Origin: a virus
Taxonomy: Duplodnaviria > Caudoviricetes
Virus record (IMG/VR): IMGVR_UViG_3300009706_000010
Coordinates: 1 to 55,698 of that record
Strand: one strand, 5' to 3'
Length of the DNA stretch: 55,698 nucleotides
This document shows positions 123 to 48,838 of the stretch, piece by piece. A model generated the notes under the pieces. The model searched no databases. It saw nothing but the letters and a program-made list of their open reading frames with translations, and had not been told where the DNA came from. Position numbers and translations under genes: made by a program. Every line of letters starts with the position of its first letter. The first letter of the stretch is position 1.

Positions 123-785
123 ATGGCGGGAAGACCCGGTAGGTCTGGACGGAAGCCGAAGGGCACGGAAGCTCACGTTTTAGCTGGCAGTTACCGGAAG
201 GATCTGCACGGGCCGGTCCCGTTGGGGCTCTCTCTCGATCGCTCGAAATCCTACCGCTGGCGACATGGAGGCAAGTGTGCAAACTGCGGGAATCCAACGT
301 GCTTGAGTAGCCTGCGTTGCCTCCCCTGTCATAGACGTTACACAGCGGCAAAGGTGAGGGTATGCGTCCACTGTGGTTGCGACGTTCTCGGGCGCGGGAA
401 TGGCATCAGAACATGCAGCTACGCGTGTTTCCTCGCTCGAAAACTGAGTTTGGCAGAAAAACACAGGAAGCTGGGGTCAAGGGCGGAACGGGCTCGTCAA
501 CGCAGGCGCCGTGCCAGTTTTCGGCGGAAGGCGCGTGGCGGGAAGCTCGAAGTGGGCAGGTGGCGGCGAATCTGCGAACGGGACTGTTGGGTTTGCTGGG
601 TCTGCGGAGGCGGAATTGACCCGACGTTAGCAGTCCCTCACAGGCTCGCCGGGACGGCGGATCACGTGATCGCGCTGTTGGACGGCGGGAGTGATACCGA
701 TGGCAATATCAAGGCTGCTCACATGACGTGCAATTCTAGGCGCGGGAGATTAGAACGGCTGAGTAGGCCGGAAGGTGTTTCTTGA
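123..785 (+). CDS. HNH endonuclease with TerS-like N-terminus and Zn-ribbons
   Basis: RDCWVCWVCG...TADHVIAL..GG...NIKAAHMTCNSRRG HNH motif; GGAGG SD before ATG123; first 31 aa resemble TerS. Confidence 0.85.
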   Translation: MAGRPGRSGRKPKGTEAHVLAGSYRKDLHGPVPLGLSLDRSKSYRWRHGGKCANCGNPTCLSSLRCLPCHRRYTAAKVRVCVHCGCDVLGRGNGIRTCSYACFLARKLSLAEKHRKLGSRAERARQRRRRASFRRKARGGKLEVGRWRRICERDCWVCWVCGGGIDPTLAVPHRLAGTADHVIALLDGGSDTDGNIKAAHMTCNSRRGRLERLSRPEGVS

Positions 786-1560: not shown

Positions 1561-1925
1561 TGGCTTTCACACCTCCACTCACCGAGTCTAAGTGTTTCGC
1601 GGCGGCGGCTTCCGGATTGTCACAGGCGGCGAATGACGCTTCGGAAGCCGTTCGGAAGTTTGGCGAGGCATGTGGTCACGATCCTCAGCGGCGTTTACGT
1701 GGGGGTATCCCTGAGGTAGCGGTAGCTGCTCTGCACGGCACTGAAGTCGTCGTTCCGGCTGCGGCGCTGGAGCCATTTGAGCGAATCCAGATATCACGAG
1801 CCAACCACAGGCGGCACGAGGTCAACAAGGCGGCTGAGCGGCGGAATCAGGAGGCGCCTCCGGTAATGCCGGAGGAGGCTCCGGCGCAAAACACCGGTGA
1901 TCGGCGAATCACCTTCGAGGAGTAG
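1560..1925 (+). CDS. Hypothetical protein
   Basis: Translationally coupled ORF; contains LHGTEVVVP, similar to LHGREAVVP near the tape-measure C-terminus; ends GDRRITFEE. Confidence 0.6.
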   Translation: MAFTPPLTESKCFAAAASGLSQAANDASEAVRKFGEACGHDPQRRLRGGIPEVAVAALHGTEVVVPAAALEPFERIQISRANHRRHEVNKAAERRNQEAPPVMPEEAPAQNTGDRRITFEE

Positions 1926-2548
1926 TGATGGCAAAGCGAGCAGCGAAACCAGTGGCGCAACCGCTGTCGGACTTCCGCCCTTTGGCGGAGGGGAAAAACC
2001 CAAACAAGCACACACAGCAGGGCATGGGCCAGCTTGATTCGGCGATGTCTCGGCACGGGTTTACCACACCGATGACGGCGGCTGCCGACGGGGATATTCT
2101 GGACGGGAACGCCAGATTGGAGAAGGCAGGCGAGCGCTTCCCCGGCGTGGACCCGATCGTGATCGAGCATGACGGGACGCGACCGATTATCGCCGTTCGG
2201 ACGGATATCGCGTCAGCGGATGACCCGTTAGCGCGAGACATCATCGTGTCATCGAACCGGATCTCTGAGGCCAACCTTGATTACGATCTGGCGGTGCTTC
2301 ATGGGCTGGCGGCGGATGGGCTCGACTTGACACCGTATGAATTCCCGGCAGACCTCTTGGCGCCGGTGAGCTCGGGTTCTGGCTTCAGTCCGTCCGTTGA
2401 GCCCACTGTCGGCGGTTCGGGCGCTGTCACGGACGCTCAGGTGGCGGCGACCGGAGAGCGGCTGACAGCGCAGGTAACAACGGAGGCTCCGGCGATTCGT
2501 GAGGTCGTCTGTCCTCACTGTGGCAAGGACTTCGGCATCGAGGGGTGA
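1925..2548 (+). CDS. ParB/Srx-like protein with C-terminal CPHCG Zn-ribbon
   Basis: KNPNKH...SMSRHGF..P...ILDGNARLE-type ParB core and CPHCGKDF tail. Confidence 0.7.
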   Translation: MMAKRAAKPVAQPLSDFRPLAEGKNPNKHTQQGMGQLDSAMSRHGFTTPMTAAADGDILDGNARLEKAGERFPGVDPIVIEHDGTRPIIAVRTDIASADDPLARDIIVSSNRISEANLDYDLAVLHGLAADGLDLTPYEFPADLLAPVSSGSGFSPSVEPTVGGSGAVTDAQVAATGERLTAQVTTEAPAIREVVCPHCGKDFGIEG

Positions 2549-2769
2549 ATATGGCTGGCGATAAGGACAAAACACCGGTGGTCCAGGCGCAGAATACGTG
2601 CAAGCACTGTTGGCATCTTCAGCGGGAGGTCCGGTCCACCTTTTCTGGGGTGGACAGCGAGGTATGCTGCCGGTGTGGGCTCTGGCGGCATCGGAAGTGG
2701 GTGCTGGCGAAAGATCCGAAGCACGGCCCGTTCGCAGCGGCGACCATCAAGAAATACGTGAAGGAATGA
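2545..2769 (+). CDS. Small Cys/His-rich hypothetical protein
   Basis: CKHCWH...CCRCG; overlaps neighbours by 4 nt. Confidence 0.55.
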   Translation: MNMAGDKDKTPVVQAQNTCKHCWHLQREVRSTFSGVDSEVCCRCGLWRHRKWVLAKDPKHGPFAAATIKKYVKE

Positions 2770-3161
2770 CCATCGCCACGAATACTCTTGCGCTCGGACT
2801 GGTGAGCACGTATGGCCGGGCGATTGCCACGGAGATTGCTACGGCGATTCTTGCAGCGACAAACGAGGAGCCGTTCGACCGCTTCGCCCGGCTGGTCGCA
2901 GCGATGCCGTTCCAAGTCGCGGTGACCATGCCGGATAATCCTCACTCCTACACCTTACGCCGGAAGTGGGATGACGATGCGGACTTCGTGTTCTGTGTCA
3001 ATTTCATCCGGTCGGATGGCTACAAGGCGCGGTTCGGGCGCTACGACTTCCCGCAACTGGACTGCGGTGAATTCTTCTATTGGACTATGTATGACGACAT
3101 CAAGGACACAGCTCTGTTCAATCGGAAGCCGCTGAGTCAGAAGGGAGTGCCGCGCCGGTGA
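2766..3161 (+). CDS. Hypothetical protein (TMP..PH.Y...YWTM...NR family)
   Basis: ATG2766 coupled to the upstream stop; conserved-looking motif pattern. Confidence 0.6.
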   Translation: MTIATNTLALGLVSTYGRAIATEIATAILAATNEEPFDRFARLVAAMPFQVAVTMPDNPHSYTLRRKWDDDADFVFCVNFIRSDGYKARFGRYDFPQLDCGEFFYWTMYDDIKDTALFNRKPLSQKGVPRR

Positions 3162-3712
3162 CTCGAATTATTGTGACGACTATGCCGGACTCGCGGTTTA
3201 TTTCGTATCTGCTCGATCGGCTGCCGACACTGGAGGTCGTGGAGGACACGAAGCGGGATGCGTGGGATACCTACATGCGCTCACTAGAAGTGCAGGGCGA
3301 CGATCCAGCGATCCACATGGAGGACGATATTCTCCTGACTCGTGACTTTGCCGCGAAGGCGCAGGCCGTGATCGACAAACGCCCGGATTCGGTCATCCAG
3401 TTCTTCAGTATGCGCGGCAAGGACTTGACGGTAGGTTCGAGGTGGGACCGTCAGTTCGCCATGAATCAATGCACTTACCTGCCTGCCGGATACCCGGCGG
3501 CGTTCATGCCGTTCGCGGAGTCGTGGACCCGTCGTGCAGAGAATCCGTATGGCTACGATACGTGTTTCAACGACTGGCTGCGCTCTCGCCGTGAGCCGTA
3601 TTGGATCTCTGTCCCCTCGCTCGTTGAGCATCGCGTGGCTGTGAGCAGGATCGCGAGGTCGCGAAGCTCAAGGCGGCAGAGTAAGACGTTCACGGATCTT
3701 GACGAGGAGTAG
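3158..3712 (+). CDS. Glycosyltransferase-like protein (GT-A/GT25-like)
   Basis: HMEDDILL acidic motif and C-terminal PSLVEH. Confidence 0.6.
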   Translation: MTRIIVTTMPDSRFISYLLDRLPTLEVVEDTKRDAWDTYMRSLEVQGDDPAIHMEDDILLTRDFAAKAQAVIDKRPDSVIQFFSMRGKDLTVGSRWDRQFAMNQCTYLPAGYPAAFMPFAESWTRRAENPYGYDTCFNDWLRSRREPYWISVPSLVEHRVAVSRIARSRSSRRQSKTFTDLDEE

Positions 3713-3713
3713 A

Positions 3714-4235
3714 ATGGCGACATTCAAGTGGAACACTCCGTTGTCCCATCAGCGGTCACAGCCGGTCCTTCGCTATCGCGACATCTCGTTACCGGACTCG
3801 ATCGGGCTTTACCCGGAGATGTTGGAGCAGATGTTCCCGTCGGCGAATCACTCGTTGAAAACGTGGGGTAGGACTCCCGGCGTCAAGGAAAACGATCCTC
3901 ACTGGATTGGGGTCCGGAAGCAGACACCGTTGCACACGGACAAGGCATACCCTCGCTACACGCACCAGATCATGGTCAACGTCGATCCGGGTTTCTGCTT
4001 GCGCGGTGTGTCGCTGGCTGAGATTCAGTTGAAGCGGGGCCGGTATTTCGTGCTGGACACGCATAGCCCTCACCAGTTATTCGCCGGAGGAAATTGGCCG
4101 GCTCCACAGTGGTATCTGGCACTGTCGCTGGACACCTTCGTGGACGACGCACCGGACGCTGACGTTATCCACGCGCTGCTCGGCTACGCTGCGACCTTCA
4201 AGTTCGATGACGTTCACCCGATGCCGCTCACGTAG
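3714..4235 (+). CDS. Putative 2OG-Fe(II) oxygenase / cupin-fold hydroxylase
   Basis: PLHTD (HxD) plus distal LDTHSPH, the pattern of double-stranded beta-helix oxygenases. Confidence 0.5.
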   Translation: MATFKWNTPLSHQRSQPVLRYRDISLPDSIGLYPEMLEQMFPSANHSLKTWGRTPGVKENDPHWIGVRKQTPLHTDKAYPRYTHQIMVNVDPGFCLRGVSLAEIQLKRGRYFVLDTHSPHQLFAGGNWPAPQWYLALSLDTFVDDAPDADVIHALLGYAATFKFDDVHPMPLT

Positions 4236-4241
4236 GGCGCC

Positions 4242-4793
4242 ATGGGCAGAGTCTCGTATCTTCGCGACATCCGCCGAAAGCTCGGGACGGTTGGCCGCGT
4301 GGCAGAGATCGGTGTGCTGCGCGGTCGCTTCGCTGCCTCCCTCCTCGCTGAGCTTCGGCCACGGGAACTAATCCTCGTGGACCCATGGCGGCAGATGGAT
4401 CACACCTATTCTTCGTCTGCCTCCGCTTGGGACTTCCGGCATGATTACGTTCAGAAGCGGTTCGAAGGCGACAAGCGTGTTCGGATACTTCGGGCTACCT
4501 CCCTTGAAGCGGCGCCGCTCATCATGGACGGCTCACTCGATCTGGTCTACATCGATGCTGACCATCGCGAGGAGTCGGTTTTGGCAGACCTGATCGCGTG
4601 GGCGCCGAAGGTCAGAGACGGTGGGTTCATCGCCGGTCACGACTTCACGCCGGATGATCCTCGAACTCGCGAGGTCGTGTCGGCTGTGCGGCGGTTCTTC
4701 GGCCCGGACTTCGAGCGGATCGTGTCGCCTCTGGAGCGTGAGGGCACCGGAGCCCGTCACATGCCTCGCTCCTACTTCCTGAGGGTGGAATAG
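4242..4793 (+). CDS. Class I SAM-dependent methyltransferase (Methyltransf_24-like)
   Basis: AEIGVLRG, LVDPW, DLVYIDADH, GGFIAGHDF. Confidence 0.85.
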   Translation: MGRVSYLRDIRRKLGTVGRVAEIGVLRGRFAASLLAELRPRELILVDPWRQMDHTYSSSASAWDFRHDYVQKRFEGDKRVRILRATSLEAAPLIMDGSLDLVYIDADHREESVLADLIAWAPKVRDGGFIAGHDFTPDDPRTREVVSAVRRFFGPDFERIVSPLEREGTGARHMPRSYFLRVE

Positions 4794-5929
4794 TGCCTCC
4801 GGCGTCTGCGAAGATCTACCTTCCGGAGAACGTGCTGGAGGCGGCGCTGGACCGGATTCGTTGGGTCTATGACCACTTCGAGTATGTCGATGTGTCCTTC
4901 TCGGGCGGCAAGGACAGCACGGTTGTCCTGAACCTCGCCCTGCAAGTCGCGGAGGAGAAGGGGCGTTTGCCGGTCCCGGTCGTGTTCATCGATCAAGAGG
5001 CGGAATGGGCCACGGTGATTGAATACATCCGCTCGGTGATGTCAGATCCACGCGTCGATTGCCAATGGCTTCAGGTGCCGATCCGGCTTTTCAACGCGAC
5101 CTCGACGGCTCACCCGTGGCTTCATTGCTGGAATCCGGAGGAGGAAGTGGAGTGGATTCGCCCGAAGGAAGCGGACTCGATTCACGAGAACGTCTACGGG
5201 ACTGACCGATTCGTGAAGCTGTTCGAAGCCTACGAGTATCACCACCGGCCCGATGTTCCAGTGGCATCGCTGACCGGCGTGAGGGCGGAGGAGAGCCCGG
5301 CCCGGCGTCTCGGGCTGACGGTCTACGAGACGTTCAAAGGCGTGACGTGGGGCTCGGTGAAGAACAAGGGCGTTGACCACTACTCCTTCCATCCGCTCTA
5401 TGATTGGCGCACCTCGGACATCTGGAAGGCGATTCACGACCATTCGTGGGCCTACACCAAACTGTATGACTGGCAATATCAGTATGGGACTCCGCTTCGT
5501 GAGATGAGGGTGTCGAACGTCCACCACGAGACGGCTGTCAAGACGCTGTTTCATCTTCAGGAGATCGAGCCGGAGACGTGGAATAGAATCACGAAGCGGC
5601 TGCAAGGGACGAACACGGCGGCAATGCTGGCGGAGAACTTCATGTCGCCGTCGAAGCTTCCGCCGATGTTCACGGACTGGCGCGACTACCGAAACCATCT
5701 GCTGAAGAACCTGATTCCGGGTGAGAGCGATCGGGCCTACTACCGGAAGACCTTCGCAGCCTACGATGCCCGTTACGCCGGTGCGAAGCCTACCACGCTG
5801 AAATCGCTGGTGTCCACGCAGATTTCGGTGCTACTGGTGAATGACAGAGAGGGGACGAAGTTGAGCACATTCCGCGCAAACAATGGCGTCGAAGCGAAGG
5901 GGCTTCGGCAGGCTCGGGTGAAGTCGTGA
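4793..5929 (+). CDS. ibrA: PAPS-reductase/PP-loop family protein (IbrA/YbdN-like)
   Basis: SFSGGKDS PP-loop, FIDQEAE, GVRAEES..R, PLYDW...DIW, MRVS. Confidence 0.8.
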   Translation: MPPASAKIYLPENVLEAALDRIRWVYDHFEYVDVSFSGGKDSTVVLNLALQVAEEKGRLPVPVVFIDQEAEWATVIEYIRSVMSDPRVDCQWLQVPIRLFNATSTAHPWLHCWNPEEEVEWIRPKEADSIHENVYGTDRFVKLFEAYEYHHRPDVPVASLTGVRAEESPARRLGLTVYETFKGVTWGSVKNKGVDHYSFHPLYDWRTSDIWKAIHDHSWAYTKLYDWQYQYGTPLREMRVSNVHHETAVKTLFHLQEIEPETWNRITKRLQGTNTAAMLAENFMSPSKLPPMFTDWRDYRNHLLKNLIPGESDRAYYRKTFAAYDARYAGAKPTTLKSLVSTQISVLLVNDREGTKLSTFRANNGVEAKGLRQARVKS

Positions 5930-6600
5930 CCTCGCCCTCTGTTCCGTCAGAGCTATCACATGGGCTCAGGGCATTCATCCATGGTGCGTATGAACGCTTG
6001 GACGCAATGAACGCTATTCGCGAGATATTGCACGACTTGTCGCCGAACGCTTCCTCGCCGGTCGATCTGGTGCGATGGATTCCGATCGAGGGCATCGAGG
6101 CGAACGACTACAATCCGAATGCCGTGGCTCAGGTGGAGATGGGCCTATTGCAGAAAAGCATCGAGCATGACGGCTACACGCAGCCTCTTGTTACCATCTT
6201 CGATGCAGAGCGGGGCAAGTTCATCATCGTGGACGGCTTCCACCGGTATTTCGTCGGGAAGAACAGCGAGACGATTCGCGGCAGCGTGAATGGTCGGCTG
6301 CCCTGCGTCGTCATCGAGAAGGACATCAACGATCGCATGGCAAGCACGGTGCGGCATAACCGCGCCCGGGGCAAGCACTCGATTGGCGGTATGGCGTCGA
6401 TGGTGTTCGCGATGCTGGAAAACGGATGGACTGATGCGGAGATCTGCAACGAGCTTGGCATGGAGCCGGAGGAGGTGCTGCGGCTGAAGCACATAACGGG
6501 CTTCTCGCGGCTGTTCGAGAACGCGGAGTATAGCCGGGCATGGGTCACGAAGACGCAGACCCGTGTGCGTCTCGCAGCGGAGGCAGGCGGCGACAAGTGA
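5926..6600 (+). CDS. ibrB: ParB-like nuclease-domain protein (IbrB/YbdM-like)
   Basis: ANDYNPN, DGYTQP, VDGFHR, RMASTVRHNRARGKH, C-terminal ELGME..EVLRLK HTH; adjacent to IbrA-like gene. Confidence 0.85.
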   Translation: MTSPSVPSELSHGLRAFIHGAYERLDAMNAIREILHDLSPNASSPVDLVRWIPIEGIEANDYNPNAVAQVEMGLLQKSIEHDGYTQPLVTIFDAERGKFIIVDGFHRYFVGKNSETIRGSVNGRLPCVVIEKDINDRMASTVRHNRARGKHSIGGMASMVFAMLENGWTDAEICNELGMEPEEVLRLKHITGFSRLFENAEYSRAWVTKTQTRVRLAAEAGGDK

Positions 6601-35779: not shown

Positions 35780-36024
35780 ACCGATACGCAGCGACGGGCC
35801 GTTCGGATCAAGAGGTGCAGCGAACCTTCTCCTCCAAGCGCGAGGCGAACGACTACGCGAGCCGTGTGAGATTTCAAGGTGGCCGGGTGCTGATTCACGA
35901 CTTGCAGACCGGGGTGATTATCCGCGACACCGGGAAGCCGCACGGGCAGGTATGGGCCTTCCCGTCTCGGAAGGGTGAGCCGTCACCTTTACCGAAAATA
36001 GTTCTTGACTCTCACCTGGTTTGA
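35776..36024 (+). CDS. Hypothetical protein
   Basis: ATGA-coupled ORF whose 3' end runs into P7. Confidence 0.45.
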   Translation: MNRYAATGRSDQEVQRTFSSKREANDYASRVRFQGGRVLIHDLQTGVIIRDTGKPHGQVWAFPSRKGEPSPLPKIVLDSHLV

Positions 36025-36040
36025 TATTATCATTCTGGAC
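35996..36040 (+). promoter_or_regulatory. Repeated promoter element P7 (class I)
   Basis: TTGACT(36005)-17-TATCAT(36028)-7 nt-ATG36041. Confidence 0.9.
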
Positions 36041-36253
36041 ATGGCGAATGCGACGACACTGACGGAGCGCACAGAGGTCGCGGGAATCCAAGTCGAAGTG
36101 AGAGAGATGGATTTCCTGCTCGCGATGTTCAAGCGACTCGGCGGGACCGCTGACGGCGCAACGGACAAAAGCATCGACCTGCACTTTCCGACTGAGCGAG
36201 CAGCCAACGAGTTCAAGGCTGCCGCTGTCACACGCGGCGCAATTTTTGATTAG
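36041..36253 (+). CDS. Hypothetical protein (leaderless)
   Basis: ATG at predicted +1 of P7. Confidence 0.6.
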   Translation: MANATTLTERTEVAGIQVEVREMDFLLAMFKRLGGTADGATDKSIDLHFPTERAANEFKAAAVTRGAIFD

Positions 36254-36261
36254 GAGGACCG

Positions 36262-37779
36262 ATGACGACGAAAACGACCACGGTGAGCGGCATGGTGAAG
36301 GCATTCAAGGCGGCACGGCGCTGCTCTTGCCCGATCGTCGCGATCGAGACTCCGGACCCGGCAGCCACGATCGATGAGATTGTGGCCGTCGTCAAGGGCG
36401 CGGCGGTCGCGCAATGGGATCTGGTGCGAGGGCTGCGCGGTGTCAACAAGGCGGCACAGTCGGCGCTTGTAGATGTCAACCCGGATGCGACGGTGAGCCC
36501 GGTGGAGGCGCTGGCGGCGCTGGCTGGCAAGGCGCCGGAGGATAGCGTCACCTTCATGATGAACGCGCACCATCATCTTGCGGACCCGGGGGTGGCGCAG
36601 GCGGTGTGGAACCTCCGCGATGAGTTCAAGGGCAACGGGCGGATGCTGGTCTTGCTTGGTCCGGCCTTCCAACTTCCCTCCGAACTGGCTGGCGATGTCG
36701 TCGTGCTTGACGAGCCGCTGCCGACACGCGATGACCTGAGCGCGATCGTCACGAAGCAATACGAAAACGGCGAGGTCGCGCAACCGGATGACTCCACGCG
36801 GTCGGCGGCGCTCGATGCGCTGGTGGGCCTACCGTATTTCACGGCGGAACAGGTCGTCGCGATGTCGCTGACACCTACCGGGGTGGATGTCGATGCGCTG
36901 TGGGATCGCAAGCGAAAGGCGATCGAGAACACCGAAGGGCTGCGGGTGTGGCGAGCGCAGCCGGGCGACACGACGCTGGACGAGCTTCACGGCATCGATA
37001 ACGTGATTGGCTTCCTGCGGCGCCTGATTGCCGCGAACGCCTTCGGGGCGATTGTCTTCATCGATGAGGGTGACAAGGCGTTCGCCGGGGGGATGTCAGA
37101 CCACACCGGCGACTCGGGGGTGAGCAAAGATCAGGTGGGAACGGTCCTGTCCTACGTCGAGGATACGAAGTCACTCGGGGTGCTGCTGGCAGGCATGACG
37201 GGCGCCGGAAAAACACAGCTTGCGAAGGCGGTGGGGCAGGCGTCAGGCAAGCCACTCATCATGTTCGATATGGCAGGCATGAAGGGCGGGACGGTCGGTG
37301 AGAGCGAACGGGCGATTCGGGCGGCGCTGAAGGTCGTCACGGCTACCGCTGAGGGCCGGGTGCTTTTCATCATGACCGCGAACAAGACCACGCAGTTCTC
37401 GCCGGAGCTTAACCGGCGCTTCCCTGACCAATTCTTTTTCGACACGCTGAGTGAAGAGGGGCGCGAAGCCTGCTGGACCGTCTACGCGGGAAAGTGCAAG
37501 CTGACACCGCTTCAGGCGTCACGGCCCACGGGATTCGATGAGGGCTGGACGGGCGCTGAAATCAAACGGGCCTGCGAACGGGCGGCGCTTTTCAACCAGA
37601 CAATCGAGGAGGCGGCACGATACATCGTCCCGGCGGCTGTCTCGGCGAAGGCCACGATAGACAACCTGCGGCGCGAAGCTGCCGGGCGCTTCCTCTCGGC
37701 GAGTGACCCGGGGCTGTATCAACCGGCGGTCGCGGACTCACCGGCGGAAGCCACGCGGAAGTTCAGGACGGAGGACTGA
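36262..37779 (+). CDS. Ycf46-like AAA+ ATPase with permuted Walker B / Walker A order
   Basis: AGGAGG SD; Ycf46-like N-domain (LPSEL...LP), IVFIDE, GMTGAGKT, VGESE, TAN, ELNRRF, WTGAEI. Confidence 0.85.
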   Translation: MTTKTTTVSGMVKAFKAARRCSCPIVAIETPDPAATIDEIVAVVKGAAVAQWDLVRGLRGVNKAAQSALVDVNPDATVSPVEALAALAGKAPEDSVTFMMNAHHHLADPGVAQAVWNLRDEFKGNGRMLVLLGPAFQLPSELAGDVVVLDEPLPTRDDLSAIVTKQYENGEVAQPDDSTRSAALDALVGLPYFTAEQVVAMSLTPTGVDVDALWDRKRKAIENTEGLRVWRAQPGDTTLDELHGIDNVIGFLRRLIAANAFGAIVFIDEGDKAFAGGMSDHTGDSGVSKDQVGTVLSYVEDTKSLGVLLAGMTGAGKTQLAKAVGQASGKPLIMFDMAGMKGGTVGESERAIRAALKVVTATAEGRVLFIMTANKTTQFSPELNRRFPDQFFFDTLSEEGREACWTVYAGKCKLTPLQASRPTGFDEGWTGAEIKRACERAALFNQTIEEAARYIVPAAVSAKATIDNLRREAAGRFLSASDPGLYQPAVADSPAEATRKFRTED

Positions 37780-37976
37780 TGGAAATCAAGTCACGGAGGG
37801 GGTTCGACGCGGCGGTATATCGGCAGACCGAACTTGAGGATAGCGTGGACGGCGATGTGGATGCGCTGTCGGCTGAAGAACAAGTGGAATTCGAGGCGAT
37901 CGGGGATGCGATTATCGCGTGGGAAGACAAGTGCGAAGAACGCGGCGGCAAACTGAACCGCTACGGGGGCGACTGA
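37779..37976 (+). CDS. Small acidic protein
   Basis: Coupled ORF, strongly D/E-rich. Confidence 0.5.
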   Translation: MEIKSRRGFDAAVYRQTELEDSVDGDVDALSAEEQVEFEAIGDAIIAWEDKCEERGGKLNRYGGD

Positions 37977-38389
37977 TGGCAAGCGCAACGGCGATTCGGC
38001 AGGGATGGGCAGATCACACCGAACTGACACCTTCGGACGGTGGGAAGTCGTGGATGGTGCAGAAGAACGTCAACGGGGCGTTCCGCTGCTCCTGCCCGGC
38101 CTACATCTTCAGCAAGGCACCGAAGGGGTGCAAGCATGTCGCCCGGGTGAAGTATCTGGAGGAGGAGAACAGGACACTTGAGCCCTACGTTGAGGAGGCA
38201 TCGAGCATCCTCACGGAGATGCTTCAGCATGTCGGACTAAACCGTTCAGAGTTCGTCGGCCCGGAGTTGCGAAACCAGATGGGCGCGGTGCTTGCGCTTC
38301 GGCTTCAGGCGCTCAGCACGATCGCGGTCACGGTCGCTTCGCCGACGGCTGCCACACGCGGGGTGCGGAAGATTCGGTTCGATGACTGA
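37976..38389 (+). CDS. SWIM Zn-finger protein
   Basis: FRCSCPAY......CKHV (CxC...CxH). Confidence 0.7.
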   Translation: MASATAIRQGWADHTELTPSDGGKSWMVQKNVNGAFRCSCPAYIFSKAPKGCKHVARVKYLEEENRTLEPYVEEASSILTEMLQHVGLNRSEFVGPELRNQMGAVLALRLQALSTIAVTVASPTAATRGVRKIRFDD

Positions 38390-38816
38390 ATTCACGAGAA
38401 CGGCCTGCTCGTGTCCGGCCTGCGTTGAATGCTGCCAGCGGCAGCCCGGGCCACTGGCGCCGGGCGACATGGAGAAAATCGCGGAGTGGGTAGGGCAGCC
38501 GGTAAACGAGGTCATGCAATACTTTTGGGCATCGCCCGGTGCGCTCGTGCAGGATGTCGAGACGGGACGGCGCCGGATGATTCCAACGATCACGCCGAAG
38601 ATAGAGGCCCATGGCTGCACGTTCCTTGTCGATAACCGCTGCGTGATTCATCCTGTCGCGCCGTTCGGCTGTTCGAAGTTCGACACGCACCAGCGCCCGG
38701 CAGAGTATGTCCCACGGGCAGCCTTCCTGTATCGGAGCATCGAGGACAGCGACGTGTATGCACGGCAGCGGGGCATGCTGCCACCTGCTACGAGTTGGAA
38801 ACCGAGAGGGCGGTAA
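38382..38816 (+). CDS. YkgJ-like Cys-cluster (Zn/Fe-S) protein
   Basis: CSC..C..CC...CTFL..NRC.IH...P..C..F. Confidence 0.75.
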   Translation: MTEFTRTACSCPACVECCQRQPGPLAPGDMEKIAEWVGQPVNEVMQYFWASPGALVQDVETGRRRMIPTITPKIEAHGCTFLVDNRCVIHPVAPFGCSKFDTHQRPAEYVPRAAFLYRSIEDSDVYARQRGMLPPATSWKPRGR

Positions 38817-39938: not shown

Positions 39939-40271
39939 ATGAATAAGACGACGACAGAACAGCACGACGATTTCCGCGATGTCCCGCATGTCGCGAGTGT
40001 CATCCTTCATCAACTCGGCGGTCGGCGCTTCCGGAGGATGACCGGCGCGAAAACCTTCGTCGGGCAACAGAATGACGACGGGACCGGCTGGCTGCGCTTC
40101 CGGCTCCCGAAGCCACGGTGCATCATTCAGGTCACGCTTACGGCCATGGATACCTACATCGTGAGGAGGCTGGCGCTGAACGGACAGGAACGGAAGGTCT
40201 GCGAAGATGTCTACGCGGACAATCTCGAAGCGGTTTTCACCGGCATGACCGGACTTTACACGAGGCTTTAA
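39939..40271 (+). CDS. Conserved-looking phage protein (ILxQLGG..F..MTGAK)
   Basis: ILHQLGGRRF..MTGAK...DTY...DVYAD.L...F...TGLYT.L. Confidence 0.7.
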   Translation: MNKTTTEQHDDFRDVPHVASVILHQLGGRRFRRMTGAKTFVGQQNDDGTGWLRFRLPKPRCIIQVTLTAMDTYIVRRLALNGQERKVCEDVYADNLEAVFTGMTGLYTRL

Positions 40272-40273
40272 CC

Positions 40274-40726
40274 ATGTCACACGTAGCAGCGGTATCACTC
40301 TACGTCACGGACCTCGATGCGCTCGAAGCGGTCGCGGACCGTCTCGGCTTCAAACTGATGCGCGGCCAGAAAACTTGGGCGTGGTATGGCCGGGCGGTCG
40401 GTGAGAGCGAAGCGGCGGCACAGGGCCACTCGGCGAAGGACTTCGGCAAGGGCGTTCACGCGCTTCGACTGAAGGATCACGGTCCCGGCGATTACGAGAT
40501 CGGTCTGGTGGCCCGGCTGGACGGCAAGCCGGGGTTCGAACTGCTCCACGACTCATGGGGTATGCACGGGCGGAAGCTGACGGCTGCCGCTGGTGCCGGG
40601 CTCGGGACGCTCAAACGCGAACTGGCGGCGGAGGTATCCACGCGGATCTTGCAGCGACAGGGCTATCGAGTCTCACGGATTATTCAGCCGGACGGCGGCA
40701 TCAAACTTCGAGGTGCACGAGCATGA
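40274..40726 (+). CDS. DUF1257 (Ycf35)-like protein
   Basis: MSHV......DLDAL......LG...YEIGL...D.W...QGY.V motif pattern. Confidence 0.7.
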   Translation: MSHVAAVSLYVTDLDALEAVADRLGFKLMRGQKTWAWYGRAVGESEAAAQGHSAKDFGKGVHALRLKDHGPGDYEIGLVARLDGKPGFELLHDSWGMHGRKLTAAAGAGLGTLKRELAAEVSTRILQRQGYRVSRIIQPDGGIKLRGARA

Positions 40727-40908
40727 AGGAAATCACCGTCAACATTTCGGAAGCTGGCGATGTGGAGGTATCCACGAAGGGGTTCGCTGGCAAAGCCTGT
40801 CAGGACGCCACGAAGCAGCTAGAGGCGGCGCTAGGCGCCACGACAGCGGACACGCCGACTGCTGAGATGATGAAGCGCAACACGGCTCACCTGAGGGCAG
40901 GACAGTGA
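40723..40908 (+). CDS. DUF2997-like small protein
   Basis: MKEI.V.I...G.V...TKGF.G..C..AT..LE.ALG......T.E. Confidence 0.8.
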   Translation: MKEITVNISEAGDVEVSTKGFAGKACQDATKQLEAALGATTADTPTAEMMKRNTAHLRAGQ

Positions 40909-41165
40909 CCCACGATGTCATCATCTCGCCCACCGGTGAGATCAGCTTCATTTATGCCGATGGGCTGGCGGCGCTGGTGGATGCGGGAGAAGGGACGATC
41001 ACCCGGGCGAGCCACGTCGAACCGGCTTCGGCGTATGGGCTGTCTGGCACCGGATGGGTGGCCGATATGGCGCCAAGCGCGGGGCCGCTGCTAGGGCCGT
41101 TCGAGACACGCGGGGAAGCGCTCACCGCTGAGGTCGCATGGCTTCAAGAGAATCGGGGGCTCTGA
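40905..41165 (+). CDS. Small protein typically following DUF2997
   Basis: I.P.G....IY.D....G.I.RASHVEP...W.AD....GP.LGPF..R..AL.AEV.WL. Confidence 0.7.
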   Translation: MTHDVIISPTGEISFIYADGLAALVDAGEGTITRASHVEPASAYGLSGTGWVADMAPSAGPLLGPFETRGEALTAEVAWLQENRGL

Positions 41166-41557
41166 TGGCAACAGGTCAAAAACTGTCACCTTCCGCGTTG
41201 CGGGAGAGGCGATTGCGCCGGGAACGGTTTGCCACGCTCTCCGCAGACAACCGGAGGCTGGTCACGGAAAGCGATGGTTGGCGGGAGAAACACGCAGTCG
41301 CTGTTCGATCGCTCACGGAGGTCGCGAAGGAAGCGAGTGAGGGCCAGATGGAAATCTTACGGCTCCGGGCCTTGCTTGGCACAGCCGGGGATGCGATACG
41401 GATCGGGTTGCGGAAGGACTTCGCGGCGCTCGTATCGGATGGGCTGGCGGCGCGGACTGCGGAGCAGCACGGCGATTTCCCTTGGTGCGATGACTGCAAG
41501 AGTTACCATCACTCGGATAATCCAACCTGCGTCACTTGGCACCCGCTGAAAAAATAG
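41165..41557 (+). CDS. Coiled-coil hypothetical protein
   Basis: Coupled ORF; its stop codon lies inside the P11 A-tract. Confidence 0.5.
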   Translation: MATGQKLSPSALRERRLRRERFATLSADNRRLVTESDGWREKHAVAVRSLTEVAKEASEGQMEILRLRALLGTAGDAIRIGLRKDFAALVSDGLAARTAEQHGDFPWCDDCKSYHHSDNPTCVTWHPLKK

Positions 41558-41591
41558 TTCTTGACACCGGCTGTCAATTTGATACCATCAA
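41551..41591 (+). promoter_or_regulatory. Repeated promoter element P11 (class II variant)
   Basis: AAAATAGTTC TTGACA(41561)-16-TACCAT(41583); palindrome TTGATACCATCAA. Confidence 0.8.
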
Positions 41592-41624
41592 TAAATCGAT
41601 GCGGCAATCACGCCGCGAGGGCTA

Positions 41625-42545
41625 ATGAAGATGACGACGACAAACGCAGCGGAGCAGGGGAACCTTATCGCGACCAAAACGATTTGCCTGTGTTTGGAGC
41701 GCGGGAAGTTCGGGAACAGCAAAAAGGCGGGGCTGAGCGCGGTCACGGTGCGAGCGGACAAGACTCGGCTTCGGATGTCGAAGCAGTTGATTGATTCGCC
41801 GGAACTGACGAATATTTCGAAACTGGACACGGAGGTATCGATCTACCTCTCGGCGCTGGCGTCACCGTCACTGATGAAGGGCGGTATCTACATGGTGCCG
41901 ATCGCCGGGGTATCGGCGCTAGAGGCGGCGTTGAAGGGCTTCCAGACTCGGCGGCAAGCCTTGGTGGAAATCGCGGTGGAGAAATTCGACCAACGGGTGC
42001 AGGAAACGATCGAGCCACTCGGCGATGTCTACGACGCCAGCGACTACCCCACGGCTGAGGCGTTCAGGGACACCTTCAAGTTCTCTTGGCGCTATGTCAC
42101 CTTTGACACGCCGCAGCGCTTGAAGGCGATTAGCTCGGAACTGTTCGAGTCGGAGCGGGAGAAACACGCCGCGCACTTGTCGTCGGTCGCTGACTCCTGC
42201 CGGGATGCGATGCGAACCGGGCTCGCGGATCTGGTCAAGCATCTGGTGGACAAGCTGACGCCGGGCGCGGACGGCAAAAAGAAGGTGTTCAGCAAGTCGG
42301 CGGTGGAAAGCATGAACGAGTTTCTTGCGTCCTTCGACATGCGGAACGTGACTGAGGACAGCGAACTGTCGGCGCTGGTCGTCAGGGCTCGGGCGGCAAT
42401 CTCCGGGGTGGATGCGCCTATGCTTCGGACGAACGACGAAGTTCGGACGACGGTCTTGGATCAGTTCTCGGGGCTGGCGGATTCGCTCGAAGTCTTGACG
42501 GCGCAACGCGGCGATCGGAAAATCGAATTCGAGACGGAGGACTGA
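41625..42545 (+). CDS. DUF3150-like protein
   Basis: SKQLID, GIYMVP, LGDVYDASDYP....R..F, L..LV.HL..KL, F...NV....L..LV, LR....R. Confidence 0.65.
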   Translation: MKMTTTNAAEQGNLIATKTICLCLERGKFGNSKKAGLSAVTVRADKTRLRMSKQLIDSPELTNISKLDTEVSIYLSALASPSLMKGGIYMVPIAGVSALEAALKGFQTRRQALVEIAVEKFDQRVQETIEPLGDVYDASDYPTAEAFRDTFKFSWRYVTFDTPQRLKAISSELFESEREKHAAHLSSVADSCRDAMRTGLADLVKHLVDKLTPGADGKKKVFSKSAVESMNEFLASFDMRNVTEDSELSALVVRARAAISGVDAPMLRTNDEVRTTVLDQFSGLADSLEVLTAQRGDRKIEFETED

Positions 42546-48089: not shown

Positions 48090-48335
48090 ATGGCGACGAG
48101 CAACAGGATCAGCGGAACGATGAAGGCCGTGAAGCACGAGATGGGCTTCGGCTTCATCACACACGACGCGACCGGGCAGGACTACTTCATGCACCGAACC
48201 GCGTTCATCCTTAACGAGGGGCAGGACGCGGCGACGGAGTGGGAGACGCTAGAGGTTGACGATCGGGTGGAATTCGAGCCCGTCGAAGGCCCGAAGGGGC
48301 TCCGGGCTATCGAAGTCGTTCGGATAGACGGGTGA
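48090..48335 (+). CDS. Cold-shock domain protein
   Basis: GFGFI (RNP1), YFMH (RNP2), VEFE...GPKGLRA..V; GGAGG SD. Confidence 0.9.
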   Translation: MATSNRISGTMKAVKHEMGFGFITHDATGQDYFMHRTAFILNEGQDAATEWETLEVDDRVEFEPVEGPKGLRAIEVVRIDG

Positions 48336-48838
48336 GCGGCGGTCACGAGCCGATTCAACAGCCCGGGAAGTCGAAGCAGTCGTTTTCAACACCTGCGGAC
48401 TTCATGGCTGCTGTGAAGACACGATTCCGTATCGAGCAGTTCGCTCACGACTTCGCGGCTGAGCGGTCGAATACGAAGGCCCGGCACTGGTTCGGGCGCG
48501 GCATCGATGCGCTGAGTTTTGAAGACTGGAGCGCCTACATTCCGGAACGAGAGTGGGGCTGGCTGAATCCGGAGTTCGGGCATATTCGGCCATGGGCTGA
48601 ACGGTGCGTTGAAACCGGCTGGATGGACCGGAACATTATGCTGCTCACTCCGGCGGCTGTCGGATCGAACTGGTATCGGGAGGTGGTAGAGCCGCATGGG
48701 TATTGCCTGTTCCTGAACGGGCGGCTACACTTCGATCCAGCGCATCCCACATGGGGTTATCCGAAGGACTGCATGTTGTCGCTGTTCGGGCCGGGCTTTC
48801 ACGGATATTCGAACGACACATGGGCATGGAGGTCATGA
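48332..48838 (+). CDS. Phage Dam-type N6-adenine DNA methyltransferase
   Basis: STP..F, D.AA...N.K, DAL..W, WLNPEF (motif IV variant), LL.PA, GRL.F. Confidence 0.75.
   Translation: MSGGHEPIQQPGKSKQSFSTPADFMAAVKTRFRIEQFAHDFAAERSNTKARHWFGRGIDALSFEDWSAYIPEREWGWLNPEFGHIRPWAERCVETGWMDRNIMLLTPAAVGSNWYREVVEPHGYCLFLNGRLHFDPAHPTWGYPKDCMLSLFGPGFHGYSNDTWAWRS

What the first reader, a model, noticed from the sequence alone, without database searches (positions are those of the whole stretch)
36262..37779. AAA+ ATPase with internally permuted core: Walker B precedes Walker A
Seen order: IVFIDEGDKAFAGG..DSGVS...GTVLSYVED (Walker B block, from 37051), then GVLLAGMTGAGKTQLAKA...VGESERAIRAALKVV (Walker A block, 37192-37215), then RVLFIMTAN (sensor I), ELNRRF (Arg finger) and WTGAEI (lid). 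Established: classical AAA domains, including Ycf46-like ones, run Walker A, GESE helix, Walker B, sensor I. Here two adjacent blocks appear swapped within a single intact ORF with all catalytic residues retained, and no second hhhhDE follows Walker A. Inference: a topologically rewired but probably active ATPase. I recall similar sequences in environmental bacteria but cannot verify this or whether they have been described.
Basis: partly seen in the sequence, partly recalled or inferred. Interest (0 to 1): 0.8.

Follow-up and report, generated by a model that had tools for sequence, protein, structure and literature searches.

The report
Phage AAA ATPase with reordered core
A virus of marine bacteria encodes an ATP-driven motor protein whose core building blocks come in a different order along the chain than in its described relatives, and hundreds of related viruses keep this layout with every catalytic residue intact.

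Summary
ORF 36262-37779 (505 aa) has IVFIDE (Walker B, 37051-37068) 42 residues before GMTGAGKT (Walker A, 37192-37215), followed by sensor-1 N374, R385/R386 and a lid.

It is not a misassembly. Contigs from four runs cover the block junction without any difference; two span the whole gene. All 267 homologues tested have the same order, and 332 viral contigs encode relatives.

Full-length relatives with the same N-terminal domain have the canonical order: Corndog gp96-like 120/120 and Aeromonas phage HJ05-like 120/120. So one roughly 45-residue beta3-alpha3 module has moved in front of beta1.

AlphaFold2 (pLDDT 95.2) gives a p97-like two-tier protein with a degenerate D1 and an active D2.

Covariation places the moved block against beta4 and alpha2 of D2, not D1: 21 versus 0 of the top 100 pairs.

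Catalytic residues are invariant or nearly so. Inteins sit in the P-loop and at sensor-1.

The gene belongs to a conserved phage module with DUF1257 (Ycf35-like), DUF2997 and an unassigned roughly 310-aa protein.

Cellular role is unknown. Eight literature searches found no description. I rate it a new variant of a known kind.

The parts
36005..36044 (+). Promoter-like repeat upstream of the gene: TTGACT (36005-36010), a 17-nt spacer, then TATCAT (36028-36033). It is one of 8 copies of a conserved element.
   Evidence: Sequence read. The 24-nt core occurs 8 times, all on the + strand, against 0 expected in 100 shuffles. Promoter function is inferred.
36252..36257 (+). Shine-Dalgarno-like AGGAGG, 4 nt before the ATG at 36262.
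   Evidence: Sequence read.
36262..37779 (+). Gene for a 505-aa two-tier AAA ATPase with a permuted D2 core (P0001).
36262..36936 (+). D1 (residues 1-225): degenerate AAA-like domain plus lid, with no P-loop and no Walker B.
   Evidence: AF2 secondary structure. The whole model aligns to p97/Cdc48 D1-D2 (7lmz_C: Z 18.7, 400 residues aligned, rmsd 4.4 A). phrog_8638 matches residues 7-252. No GxxxxGK[ST] occurs before residue 311.
36937..37032 (+). Inter-domain linker, short strand 227-230 and helix alpha0 (246-257) of D2.
   Evidence: Structural alignments of D2 to Vps4 and spastin begin at residue 224.
37033..37173 (+). Relocated block B (residues 258-304): beta3 with Walker B (IVFIDE at 37051-37068, D268/E269, K272), the GDSGVS loop and helix alpha3.
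   Evidence: It aligns to the post-alpha2 block of canonical relatives. D268 is kept in 256/258, E269 in 258/258 and K272 in 257/258. It covaries with beta4 and alpha2 of D2.
37174..37353 (+). Block A (residues 305-364): beta1, P-loop/Walker A (37192-37215, K317, T318), alpha1, beta2, pore-loop-1 region (MKGGTVGESE) and alpha2.
   Evidence: Pfam AAA matches profile 1-63. PDB profile hits. K317 is kept in 258/258 and S/T318 in 258/258.
37354..37449 (+). Block C start (residues 365-396): beta4 with sensor-1 (T372, N374; 37375-37383), Arg fingers R385/R386 (37414-37419) and beta5.
   Evidence: domain 7 of the alignment. N374 is kept in 258/258, R386 in 257/258 and R385 in 241/258.
37450..37701 (+). 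Helical lid of D2 (residues 397-480) with WTGAEI (429-434). Position 432 is the sensor-2 site.
   Evidence: Arginine swaps between positions 385 and 432.
40118..40726 (+). DUF1257 (Ycf35)-like gene of the conserved module.
   Evidence: The neighbour-cluster HMM hits Tunturi_3 gp102 and HJ05_67 at E about 2e-18. Both of those are Pfam DUF1257. Found in 65 of 81 loci. Pfam itself gave no hit on the window ORF.
40732..40908 (+). DUF2997 gene of the module.
   Evidence: Pfam PF11211, E 1.9e-14. Found in 37 of 81 loci.
40905..41165 (+). 86-aa conserved small protein of the module.
   Evidence: Cluster present in 13 of 81 loci. Its HMM hits Tunturi_3 gp99 (E 2e-23) and HJ05_69 (E 2e-6).
41625..42545 (+). 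306-aa conserved partner gene of unknown fold family.
   Evidence: Present on the same strand in 63 of 81 loci, usually 0-2.7 kb downstream of the ATPase. AF2 pLDDT 92.0. No Pfam or PHROG hit.

Best explanation
The gene encodes a phage Ycf46-like classical-clade AAA ATPase built like a type II AAA protein. It has a nucleotide-motif-less D1 tier (residues about 1-225) and a catalytic D2 tier.

In D2 the beta3(Walker B)-alpha3 unit has been moved from its canonical place after alpha2 to a new place between alpha0 and beta1. The chain therefore runs alpha0, beta3-alpha3, beta1-alpha1-beta2-alpha2, beta4 and onwards.

Each beta-alpha unit starts and ends on the same edge of the sheet. In the ASCE sheet order 5-1-4-3-2 every new crossover runs in the same direction as the one it replaces. 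Only three loops need to change, and every strand and helix can keep its place in space.

The active site would then be the ordinary one:
- K317/T318 of the P-loop bind ATP-Mg.
- D268/E269 of the relocated strand activate water.
- N374 acts as sensor-1.
- R385/R386 act in trans from a neighbouring subunit of a ring.

Shown here: the order is real, conserved and forms a single group in my sample; the block is homologous to canonical beta3-alpha3; residue couplings link it to beta4 and alpha2; the catalytic residues are conserved; the gene is linked to DUF1257, DUF2997 and a roughly 310-aa protein.

Inferred: the preserved three-dimensional position, ATPase activity and ring assembly. Also inferred, at about 40%, is that it acts with its module partners as an ATP-driven remodeller of a protein or nucleoprotein target during the early or middle phage programme.
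For: REAL:
- Two assembled contigs span the whole gene with 0 differences (21,406 bp in run X1, 11,315 bp in X3).
- A 13,613-bp contig in X6 covers 36321-37779. A 934-bp contig in X7 covers 36730-37663. Both bridge the B/A junction.
- No joints or indels were reported in any of the four runs.

CONSERVED:
- 267 of 267 proteins have the order N-B-A-C.
- All 150 listed representatives of 50%-identity clusters score E <= 3e-160, nearly all as a single colinear stretch.
- 332 of 536 pattern-matched viral stretches encode relatives.

HOMOLOGY OF THE MOVED BLOCK:
- MAFFT places the 41-45-residue block of the window and of Tunturi_3 before Walker A, and that of Corndog gp96 and HJ05 after alpha2. The rest, D1 included, aligns colinearly.
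- Block HMMs give A-B-C order for 120/120 Corndog-like and 120/120 HJ05-like proteins.
- PDB profile hits are out of order, as predicted.

FOLD:
- The AF2 model has pLDDT 95.2 and pTM 0.91. D2 contains exactly five main strands: 263-267, 305-311, 332-335, 367-373 and 389-393.
- D2 aligns to Vps4 (6bmf_B) at Z 17.4, rmsd 2.6 A, with 210 of the 258 residues in 224-481. About 48 residues are left unaligned, the size of the moved block.

POSITION IN SPACE:
- Mean-field DCA used 258 family sequences (Neff 245).
- Of the top 100 of 124,750 pairs, 21 link block B to D2 and 0 link it to D1. The counts are 30 versus 3 in the top 200 and 41 versus 8 in the top 300.
- G270-M371 ranks 3, A263-A363 ranks 6, V265-F369 ranks 30 and Y298-T360 ranks 23.
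- G270/M371 shows size compensation: I-A in 135 sequences, G-M in 31, M-G in 28.
- Three of these couplings (V265-V359, Y298-T360, Y298-F369) are also among the top 8 B-linking pairs in the canonical families (Neff 70).

ACTIVITY:
- E269, G314, K317, S/T318 and N374 are kept in 258/258. G311, K272 and R386 are kept in 257/258, and D268 in 256/258.
- All 17 sequences that lack R385 have Arg at sensor-2 position 432. None of the 241 with R385 do.
- Inteins sit in the P-loop (P0186, P0227) and at sensor-1 (P0129, P0245).

MODULE: DUF1257-like in 65/81 loci, DUF2997 in 37/81 and the roughly 310-aa protein in 63/81. The same DUF1257 and DUF2997 genes lie 0.1-0.8 kb downstream of the permuted (Tunturi_3) and the canonical (HJ05) ATPase genes.
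Against: - I had no access to model coordinates. The sheet order and the distance between D268/E269 and the P-loop were not measured directly.
- AF2 and DCA draw on the same family alignment and are not fully independent. DCA on related sequences carries phylogenetic bias.
- There is no biochemical or expression evidence.
- Pore-loop-1 mostly lacks the aromatic residue of threading AAA proteins. Position 344 is L in 136, I in 30, H in 25, T in 23, V in 15 and F in 9 of 258. Corndog-like proteins have K-[FY]-V-G. A classic unfoldase mechanism is therefore doubtful.
- The canonical stretch before beta1 is replaced by the C-terminus of alpha3. From recalled knowledge that stretch lines the adenine pocket, so nucleotide binding may differ in detail.
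- Pfam AAA_lid_3 is below its cut-off (14.5 bits against 27.2).
- The cellular role rests only on gene neighbourhood, and none of the partners has a known function.
Confidence: 0.8

Rival explanations
1. Assembly or annotation artefact: two adjacent segments were swapped by misassembly of a metagenomic contig.
For: The window is a metagenome-derived virus record.
Against: Contigs assembled from four runs cover the junction with 0 differences and no joints. Two of those runs are not flagged as possible sources. 267 of 267 homologues share the order. An isolated phage, Tunturi_3, has it too.
Confidence: 0.01
2. The IDE motif belongs to a separate degenerate N-terminal AAA domain, or to a linker element. 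D2 would then lack a Walker B and be a binding-only or inactive ATPase.
For: A degenerate AAA-like D1 does exist. The whole model aligns to tandem D1-D2 ATPases.
Against: D1 has its own full set of strands plus a lid (residues 25-222). D1 aligns with the D1 of Corndog gp96 and HJ05 without the block. The block is homologous to the D2 beta3-alpha3 of canonical relatives. None of the top 100 covarying pairs link it to D1, against 21 to D2. Without it D2 would have four strands and a gap between beta4 and beta2.
Confidence: 0.05
3. The fold is preserved, but the protein is a catalytically dead scaffold (a pseudo-ATPase) that only binds nucleotide or partners.
For: The pore-loop aromatic is mostly absent. 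The stretch before beta1 is replaced. No activity data exist.
Against: The Walker B glutamate, sensor-1 Asn and one Arg finger are invariant or nearly so across 258 sequences at 37-65% identity. Arginine is conserved at either position 385 or position 432. Inteins are inserted at the P-loop and at sensor-1. From recalled general knowledge, inteins favour essential catalytic sites.
Confidence: 0.12
4. The module is an anti-defence or host-takeover device, rather than a replication or assembly helper. The ATPase would dismantle a host complex.
For: The gene sits among small early-region genes behind repeated promoter-like elements. It shows weak similarity to IetA/IteA defence ATPases.
Against: The IetA/IteA matches are weak, partial and far below the cut-off (30 bits against 510). 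Homologous modules exist in cyanobacterial and plastid genomes as ycf46/ycf35, according to a passage seen in PMC4284462 and recalled knowledge. That argues for a housekeeping-type activity. Nothing here tests either role.
Confidence: 0.25

Closest known systems
Canonical Ycf46-like two-domain AAA ATPases (Mycobacterium phage Corndog gp96, Aeromonas phage HJ05 gp65, cyanobacterial and plastid Ycf46)
   Same: They share a homologous degenerate N-terminal domain, a classical-clade D2 with the GESE helix, sensor-1 Asn, Arg fingers and a lid, and similar length. In HJ05 the gene is followed by DUF1257 and DUF2997, as in Tunturi_3 and the window.
   Different: Their order is Walker A ... alpha2, then Walker B-alpha3 (240 of 240 tested). 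They keep the K-[FY]-V-G pore loop and the stretch before beta1. The window's family forms a separate bipartition (SH-like support 1.0, branch length 0.96).
Type II classical AAA unfoldases (p97/Cdc48, NVL/Rix7, AFG2)
   Same: Two stacked AAA-like tiers. The whole model aligns to p97 D1-D2 (Z 18.7, 400 residues, rmsd 4.4 A). Foldseek E is about 2e-12. Sequence similarity covers Walker A, Walker B and the second region of homology.
   Different: There is no N-terminal substrate or adaptor domain. D1 lacks all nucleotide motifs. The D2 segment order is permuted. Identity is 13-18%.
Vps4 / spastin / FIGNL1 (single-tier classical AAA)
   Same: Best single-domain structural matches of D2: 6bmf_B at Z 17.4 with rmsd 2.6 A over 210 residues, and 6p07_B at Z 16.5.
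   Different: About 48 residues within model range 224-481 stay unaligned. This fits a sequence-order-dependent aligner skipping the moved block. These proteins have no D1 tier.
Circularly permuted GTPases (RsgA/YjeQ, YlqF/RbgA family; recalled, not tested here)
   Same: They are a precedent for a P-loop NTPase family whose nucleotide motifs occur in a non-canonical linear order while the fold and activity are kept.
   Different: They belong to a different P-loop class (TRAFAC GTPases). Theirs is a true circular permutation of the whole G domain. Here two adjacent internal segments of an ASCE/AAA core are exchanged, and the domain termini stay where they are.

Membership tests
Classical AAA (Pfam PF00004) | Score above the Pfam gathering threshold | tested here: met
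   46.3 bits against a cut-off of 21.2, but only profile positions 1-63 of 131 are matched.
Classical AAA (Pfam PF00004) | Walker A GxxxxGK[ST] | tested here: met
   GMTGAGKT at 311-318. K317 and S/T318 are kept in 258/258. G316 is Ala in 77 of 258 members.
Classical AAA (Pfam PF00004) | Walker B hhhhDE | tested here: met
   IVFIDE at 264-269. D268 is kept in 256/258 and E269 in 258/258.
Classical AAA (Pfam PF00004) | Linear order Walker A, then Walker B, then sensor-1 / second region of homology | tested here: not met
   The order is Walker B, Walker A, sensor-1 in 267/267 members. PDB profile hits are out of order.
Classical AAA (Pfam PF00004) | Second region of homology: sensor-1 Asn and Arg finger(s) | tested here: met
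   N374 is kept in 258/258, R386 in 257/258 and R385 in 241/258. The region aligns to the SRH of VCP-like ATPase.
Classical AAA (Pfam PF00004) | ASCE sheet order 5-1-4-3-2, with Walker B next to the sensor-1 strand | tested here: inconclusive
   Covariation gives beta3-beta4 contacts (V265-F369, G270-M371) and alpha3-alpha2 contacts. The AF2 model is confident. No coordinates were available to read the sheet order directly.
Ycf46-like two-domain AAA | Homologous N-terminal (D1) domain | tested here: met
   The block-N HMM of the permuted family hits 239 of 240 canonical relatives. Full-length alignment to Corndog gp96 gives E 1e-18. Atlas structural neighbours are named ycf46, with TM 0.73-0.79.
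Ycf46-like two-domain AAA | Gene neighbourhood with DUF1257 (Ycf35) and DUF2997 | tested here: met
   65/81 and 37/81 loci. The window has both, at 40118-40908.
Type II AAA (p97/Cdc48-like) | Two tandem AAA domains, each with nucleotide-binding motifs | tested here: not met
   The fold is two-tiered, but D1 has no GxxxxGK[ST] and no Walker B in the beta3 position.
Anti-phage ATPase IteA/IetA | Full-length match above the family cut-off | tested here: not met
   NCBIfam NF042959 scores 30.1 bits against a cut-off of 510, over residues 344-442 only. PADLOC IetA gives E 1e-7, partial.

The most novel reading that the evidence does not exclude
This would be the first natural AAA+ family with a non-circular, internal segment-swap permutation of its catalytic alpha/beta core: beta3-alpha3 moved ahead of beta1. 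It appears as a single group in my sample and is spread across at least 150 clusters at 50% identity of mostly viral proteins. It remains a working ATPase. That would show that the order of beta-alpha units in the ASCE fold is not fixed by folding or catalysis. It also marks out a widespread, uncharacterised phage and cyanobacterial Ycf46/Ycf35/DUF2997 machine, for which an isolated phage-host pair (Tunturi_3 on Tunturiibacter psychrotolerans) offers a test system.
Probability: 0.6. Interest if true: 0.72.

Novelty: new variant of a known kind. Interest (0 to 1): 0.62.

Why it matters
- AAA+ classification, motif-based annotation and profile HMMs all assume the order Walker A, Walker B, sensor-1. 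Here Pfam sees only half a domain, so the family is under-described even though it has thousands of members.
- A conserved natural segment swap inside a Rossmann-like catalytic core is a rare test case. It bears on how far chain connectivity can change while the fold, the active site and presumably the ring mechanics are kept. That is relevant to protein evolution and design.
- It is also a caution for order-dependent structure and sequence aligners.
- The work ties phage Ycf46-like ATPases to DUF1257 (Ycf35) and DUF2997. This gives a handle on a gene set of long-unknown function in cyanobacteria and plastids.

Tried and rejected
- Complex prediction on two pieces of the same protein (block 240-304 against 305-505), meant to test whether the moved block docks on the D2 core. 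Result: no answer. The score was 0.30 against a mark of 0.32 and the controls were not run. It is neither support nor evidence against.
- Model coordinates are not exposed in /data. No topology-independent superposition or distance measurement could be made.
- No RNA holder was listed for the gene, so nothing can be said about expression.
- The fold of the 306-aa partner was searched in two ways. Foldseek against the PDB gave a best E of 0.23. VIA wide gave a best Z of 9.5 on generic helical bundles covering only residues about 171-301, below the level that means anything for helical proteins. No assignment.
- Pfam and PHROGs gave nothing for the partner, the 86-aa protein, or the window's DUF1257-like ORF itself.
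- PADLOC gave only weak partial IetA and TRIP13 hits for the ATPase and none for the partners.
- Eight literature searches were run, and passages were read in PMC7824862, PMC10853773 and PMC11924767. None describes an AAA with Walker B before Walker A. The 'permuted' hits concern methyltransferases, GTPases or engineered constructs. Supplements were closed. The Tunturi paper's annotation table (Table S3) could not be seen.
- No intermediate form with a block-B copy on both sides of block A was found among the 507 proteins classified. That sample is the top of three searches, not the whole family.
- DCA on the canonical families has Neff of only 70. It is used only as a consistency check.
Full report
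OBSERVATION.

The ORF 36262-37779 (+) is intact and encodes 505 residues.
- IVFIDE at residues 264-269 (37051-37068).
- GMTGAGKT at 311-318 (37192-37215).
- GESE from residue 346.
- VLFIMTAN with T372 and N374.
- ELNRRF with R385 and R386.
- WTGAEI at 429-434.

A regex scan finds no hhhDE after the Walker A. The only other one (VVVLDE, 146-151) is in the N-terminal domain.

Pfam AAA matches residues 307-370 only, which is profile positions 1-63 of 131. It breaks off exactly where a Walker B strand should follow.

On the D2 of a VCP-like ATPase (5vc7_A):
- Profile 308-364 aligns to chain 320-376.
- Profile 264-316 aligns to chain 378-429.
- Profile 371-447 aligns to chain 424-503.

NOT AN ARTEFACT.

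Contigs assembled from four public runs were laid on the gene.
- A 21,406-bp contig (X1) and an 11,315-bp contig (X3) span it completely with no differences.
- A 13,613-bp contig (X6) covers 36321-37779.
- A 934-bp contig (X7) covers 36730-37663.
- There are no joints or indels. X6 and X7 are not flagged as possible sources of the record.

A word-indexed search found 853 proteins at E <= 1e-3 among the 8,000 candidates scored.

An exhaustive profile search of 1.84 billion cluster representatives found 3,383 proteins at E <= 1e-30. All 150 listed score E <= 3e-160, nearly all as one colinear stretch.

I built HMMs for four blocks: N (D1), B (258-304), A (305-364) and C (365-447). All 267 proteins in hand have the order N-B-A-C; in 4 of them N is split in two.

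In IMG/VR, 332 of 536 pattern-matched stretches encode relatives.

WHAT WAS MOVED.

Among 50,697 deposited phage genomes, 18 records match. I examined three of them.
- Tunturiibacter phage Tunturi_3 gp103 (37% identity) has the permuted order.
- Mycobacterium phage Corndog gp96 and the Aeromonas phage HJ05 protein align over their whole length, including the N-terminal domain. They carry the block (VIVYIDEVEKAL...GGVS...WMQD in Corndog) after alpha2, in the canonical place.

Searches seeded with those two proteins returned 120 proteins each. All 240 have A-B-C order.

The difference is therefore the relocation of one unit of about 45 residues, beta3 (Walker B) plus alpha3, from behind alpha2 to between alpha0 and beta1.

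Family consensus strings were compared.
- The stretch before beta1 in canonical proteins (..LPAPKG) is absent from the permuted family.
- A 'GR + hydrophobic strand' motif still follows alpha2 in both families.
- From this I infer, weakly, that the breakpoints lie at the starts of strands beta1, beta3 and beta4.

A FastTree was built from 160 sequences: 70 permuted, 40 Corndog-like and 50 HJ05-like, with 411 columns of block-wise alignment. The permuted family forms one bipartition with support 1.0. This fits a single origin. The sample comes from three similarity searches, so it cannot exclude canonical forms nested among unsampled members.

No protein with a B copy on both sides of A was seen among the 507 proteins classified.

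STRUCTURE.

AlphaFold2 with a 115-sequence alignment gives pLDDT 95.2 and pTM 0.91.

Residues 1-225 form an AAA-like alpha/beta domain with a helical lid but without nucleotide motifs (D1).

D2 runs in this order:
- strand 227-230
- alpha0, 246-257
- strand 263-267 (IDE)
- helices 270-278 and 286-301
- strand 305-311, then the P-loop
- alpha1
- strand 332-335
- alpha2, 347-363
- strand 367-373 (sensor-1)
- helix 381-386 (Arg fingers)
- strand 389-393
- lid

Foldseek ranks Rix7, p97, NVL and Cdc48 first, at E about 2e-12.

VIA-align gives p97 D1-D2 (7lmz_C) at Z 18.7, with 400 residues aligned at rmsd 4.4 A. For D2 alone it gives Vps4 (6bmf_B) at Z 17.4 and rmsd 2.6 A, with 210 residues aligned within model range 224-481. 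About 48 residues are left out, which is the size of the moved block.

The ESM Atlas places canonical Ycf46 clusters at TM 0.73-0.79, against 0.91 for the protein's own family.

D1 is complete by itself, and D2 has five main strands only if the IDE strand is counted.

From the established ASCE sheet order 5-1-4-3-2, the new connections are beta3 to alpha3 to beta1, and beta2 to alpha2 to beta4. They run in the same direction across the sheet as the canonical connections, beta3 to alpha3 to beta4 and beta2 to alpha2 to beta3. All helices can therefore stay on their usual faces. This is an inference. I could not read the coordinates.

INDEPENDENT CHECK BY COVARIATION.

Mean-field DCA was run on 258 family sequences (Neff 245) over the full length.
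- Among the top 100 of 124,750 pairs at least 6 residues apart, 21 link block B to D2 and none link it to D1.
- In the top 200 the counts are 30 and 3. In the top 300 they are 41 and 8.
- The numbers of possible pairs are similar.

The strongest links are those expected for a canonical position:
- beta3 with beta4: G270-M371 at rank 3, V265-F369 at rank 30.
- beta3 with the end of alpha2: A263-A363 at rank 6, V265-V359 at rank 39.
- alpha3 with alpha2, the pore-loop region and alpha4: Y298-T360, D290-A338, V292-S380.

G270/M371 is a size-compensating pair: I-A in 135 sequences, G-M in 31 and M-G in 28.

In the canonical families (234 sequences, Neff 70), V265-V359, Y298-T360 and Y298-F369 are again among the top 8 pairs that link block B to the rest.

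LIKELY ACTIVE.

Across the 258 sequences:
- E269, G314, K317, S/T318 and N374 are invariant.
- G311, K272 and R386 are kept in 257.
- D268 is kept in 256.

R385 is kept in 241. In all 17 exceptions Arg appears at lid position 432, the sensor-2 site, and it never appears there otherwise. An arginine aimed at the gamma-phosphate is thus always kept.

Four homologues carry inteins: two in the P-loop (P0186, P0227) and two at sensor-1 (P0129, P0245).

Against a classic threading mechanism, the aromatic residue of pore-loop 1 is mostly replaced by Leu, Ile, His, Thr or Val.

CONTEXT.

The window is a complete 55.7-kb virus record.
- It has siphovirus-type structural genes.
- It has an early and replication region with ligase, nucleases, primase-helicase, methyltransferases and a resolvase.
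- Its sequence is held by marine and seawater metagenome runs.

The ATPase gene follows one of eight copies of a promoter-like element and an AGGAGG site.

In 81 loci (80 viral contigs plus the window):
- A roughly 310-aa protein gene (window 41625-42545) occurs in 63, usually 0-2.7 kb downstream on the same strand.
- A DUF1257-like gene (window 40118-40726) occurs in 65.
- DUF2997 (window 40732-40908) occurs in 37.
- Eleven loci are cut short.

Tunturi_3 (permuted) and HJ05 (canonical) both have DUF1257 and DUF2997 genes 0.1-0.8 kb downstream of the ATPase gene. The module therefore predates the permutation.

DUF1257 is Ycf35, and DUF2997 lies beside ycf35 in cyanobacteria (passage seen in PMC4284462). 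No function is known for either. The 306-aa partner models well (pLDDT 92.0) but matches nothing informative.

COMPARISON AND NOVELTY.

The protein works like a classical-clade AAA and is evolutionarily a Ycf46-like protein. It fails one defining feature of the AAA family as described, the linear order of the motifs.

The nearest precedent I can recall is the circularly permuted GTPases. They belong to a different P-loop class and show a different kind of permutation.

Eight full-text searches and passages read in three candidate papers turned up no description. Subscription journals and supplements were not searched.

I rate it a new variant of a known kind. It is of real interest for protein topology and evolution and for annotation. 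Its biological role is still open.

Noticed in passing
window 29738, 31980, 32452, 35233, 36021, 38851, 39186, 52357 (all + strand): Eight copies of a 24-nt core (TTGATATTATCATTCTGGACATGG, 0-3 mismatches), against 0 expected. At 36005-36033 it reads as TTGACT, 17 nt, TATCAT. This is probably a set of phage early or middle promoters. The repeated 'MTL..FDIIILDM' pseudo-ORF starts come from this element.
   Followed up: partly
homologues P0129, P0245, P0186, P0227; canonical relatives P0284, P0286, P0287, P0392: Versions of 810-900 aa carry insertions of about 300-400 aa. The four permuted-family sequences that I read have intein hallmarks (a C... start and an ...HN end followed by C or S). Two insertions are in the P-loop and two at sensor-1. 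Canonical relatives have insertions at the P-loop too, some with precomputed Pfam PF14890 or PF13392.
   Followed up: partly
P0001 residues 385 and 432 (window 37414-37416 and 37555-37557): A perfect arginine swap. All 17 of 258 family members that lack Arg at finger position 385 have Arg at lid (sensor-2) position 432. None of the 241 with R385 do.
   Followed up: yes
window 40118-42545; L001 5667-8649; L003 5478-6481: A conserved module sits downstream of the ATPase: a DUF1257 (Ycf35)-like gene, DUF2997, an 86-aa protein and a roughly 310-aa protein. The first three are shared by permuted (Tunturi_3, window) and canonical (HJ05) phages; the 310-aa protein was found only in the window and Tunturi_3. 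All are of unknown function.
   Followed up: partly
L001 7690-8649 (Tunturi_3 gp96): This gene is annotated 'HNH endonuclease' in the record. It is a clear homologue (E 2e-95) of the window's 306-aa partner and has no Pfam hit at E <= 0.01. The annotation looks doubtful.
   Followed up: partly
window 37919-38389 and 38292-38816: Two overlapping-frame ORFs lie just downstream of the ATPase. The first has a CxC...CxH pattern (SWIM-like by eye), but Pfam gave no hit. The second matches PF03692 (CxxCxxCC, a putative zinc- or iron-chelating domain; E 5e-5).
   Followed up: no
window 1925-6600 and 48332-48838: A DNA-modification gene set: a PAPS-reductase-like protein (phrog_2302, E 3.5e-83), ParB-like proteins and several methyltransferase-like ORFs, next to the terminase genes.
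   Followed up: no
P0001 positions 312-316: Many family members have GPPGxAKS instead of GxxGxGK[ST]: position 316 is Ala in 77 of 258. This covaries with position 245 of alpha0 (rank 5), which hints that alpha0 packs on the P-loop.
   Followed up: partly
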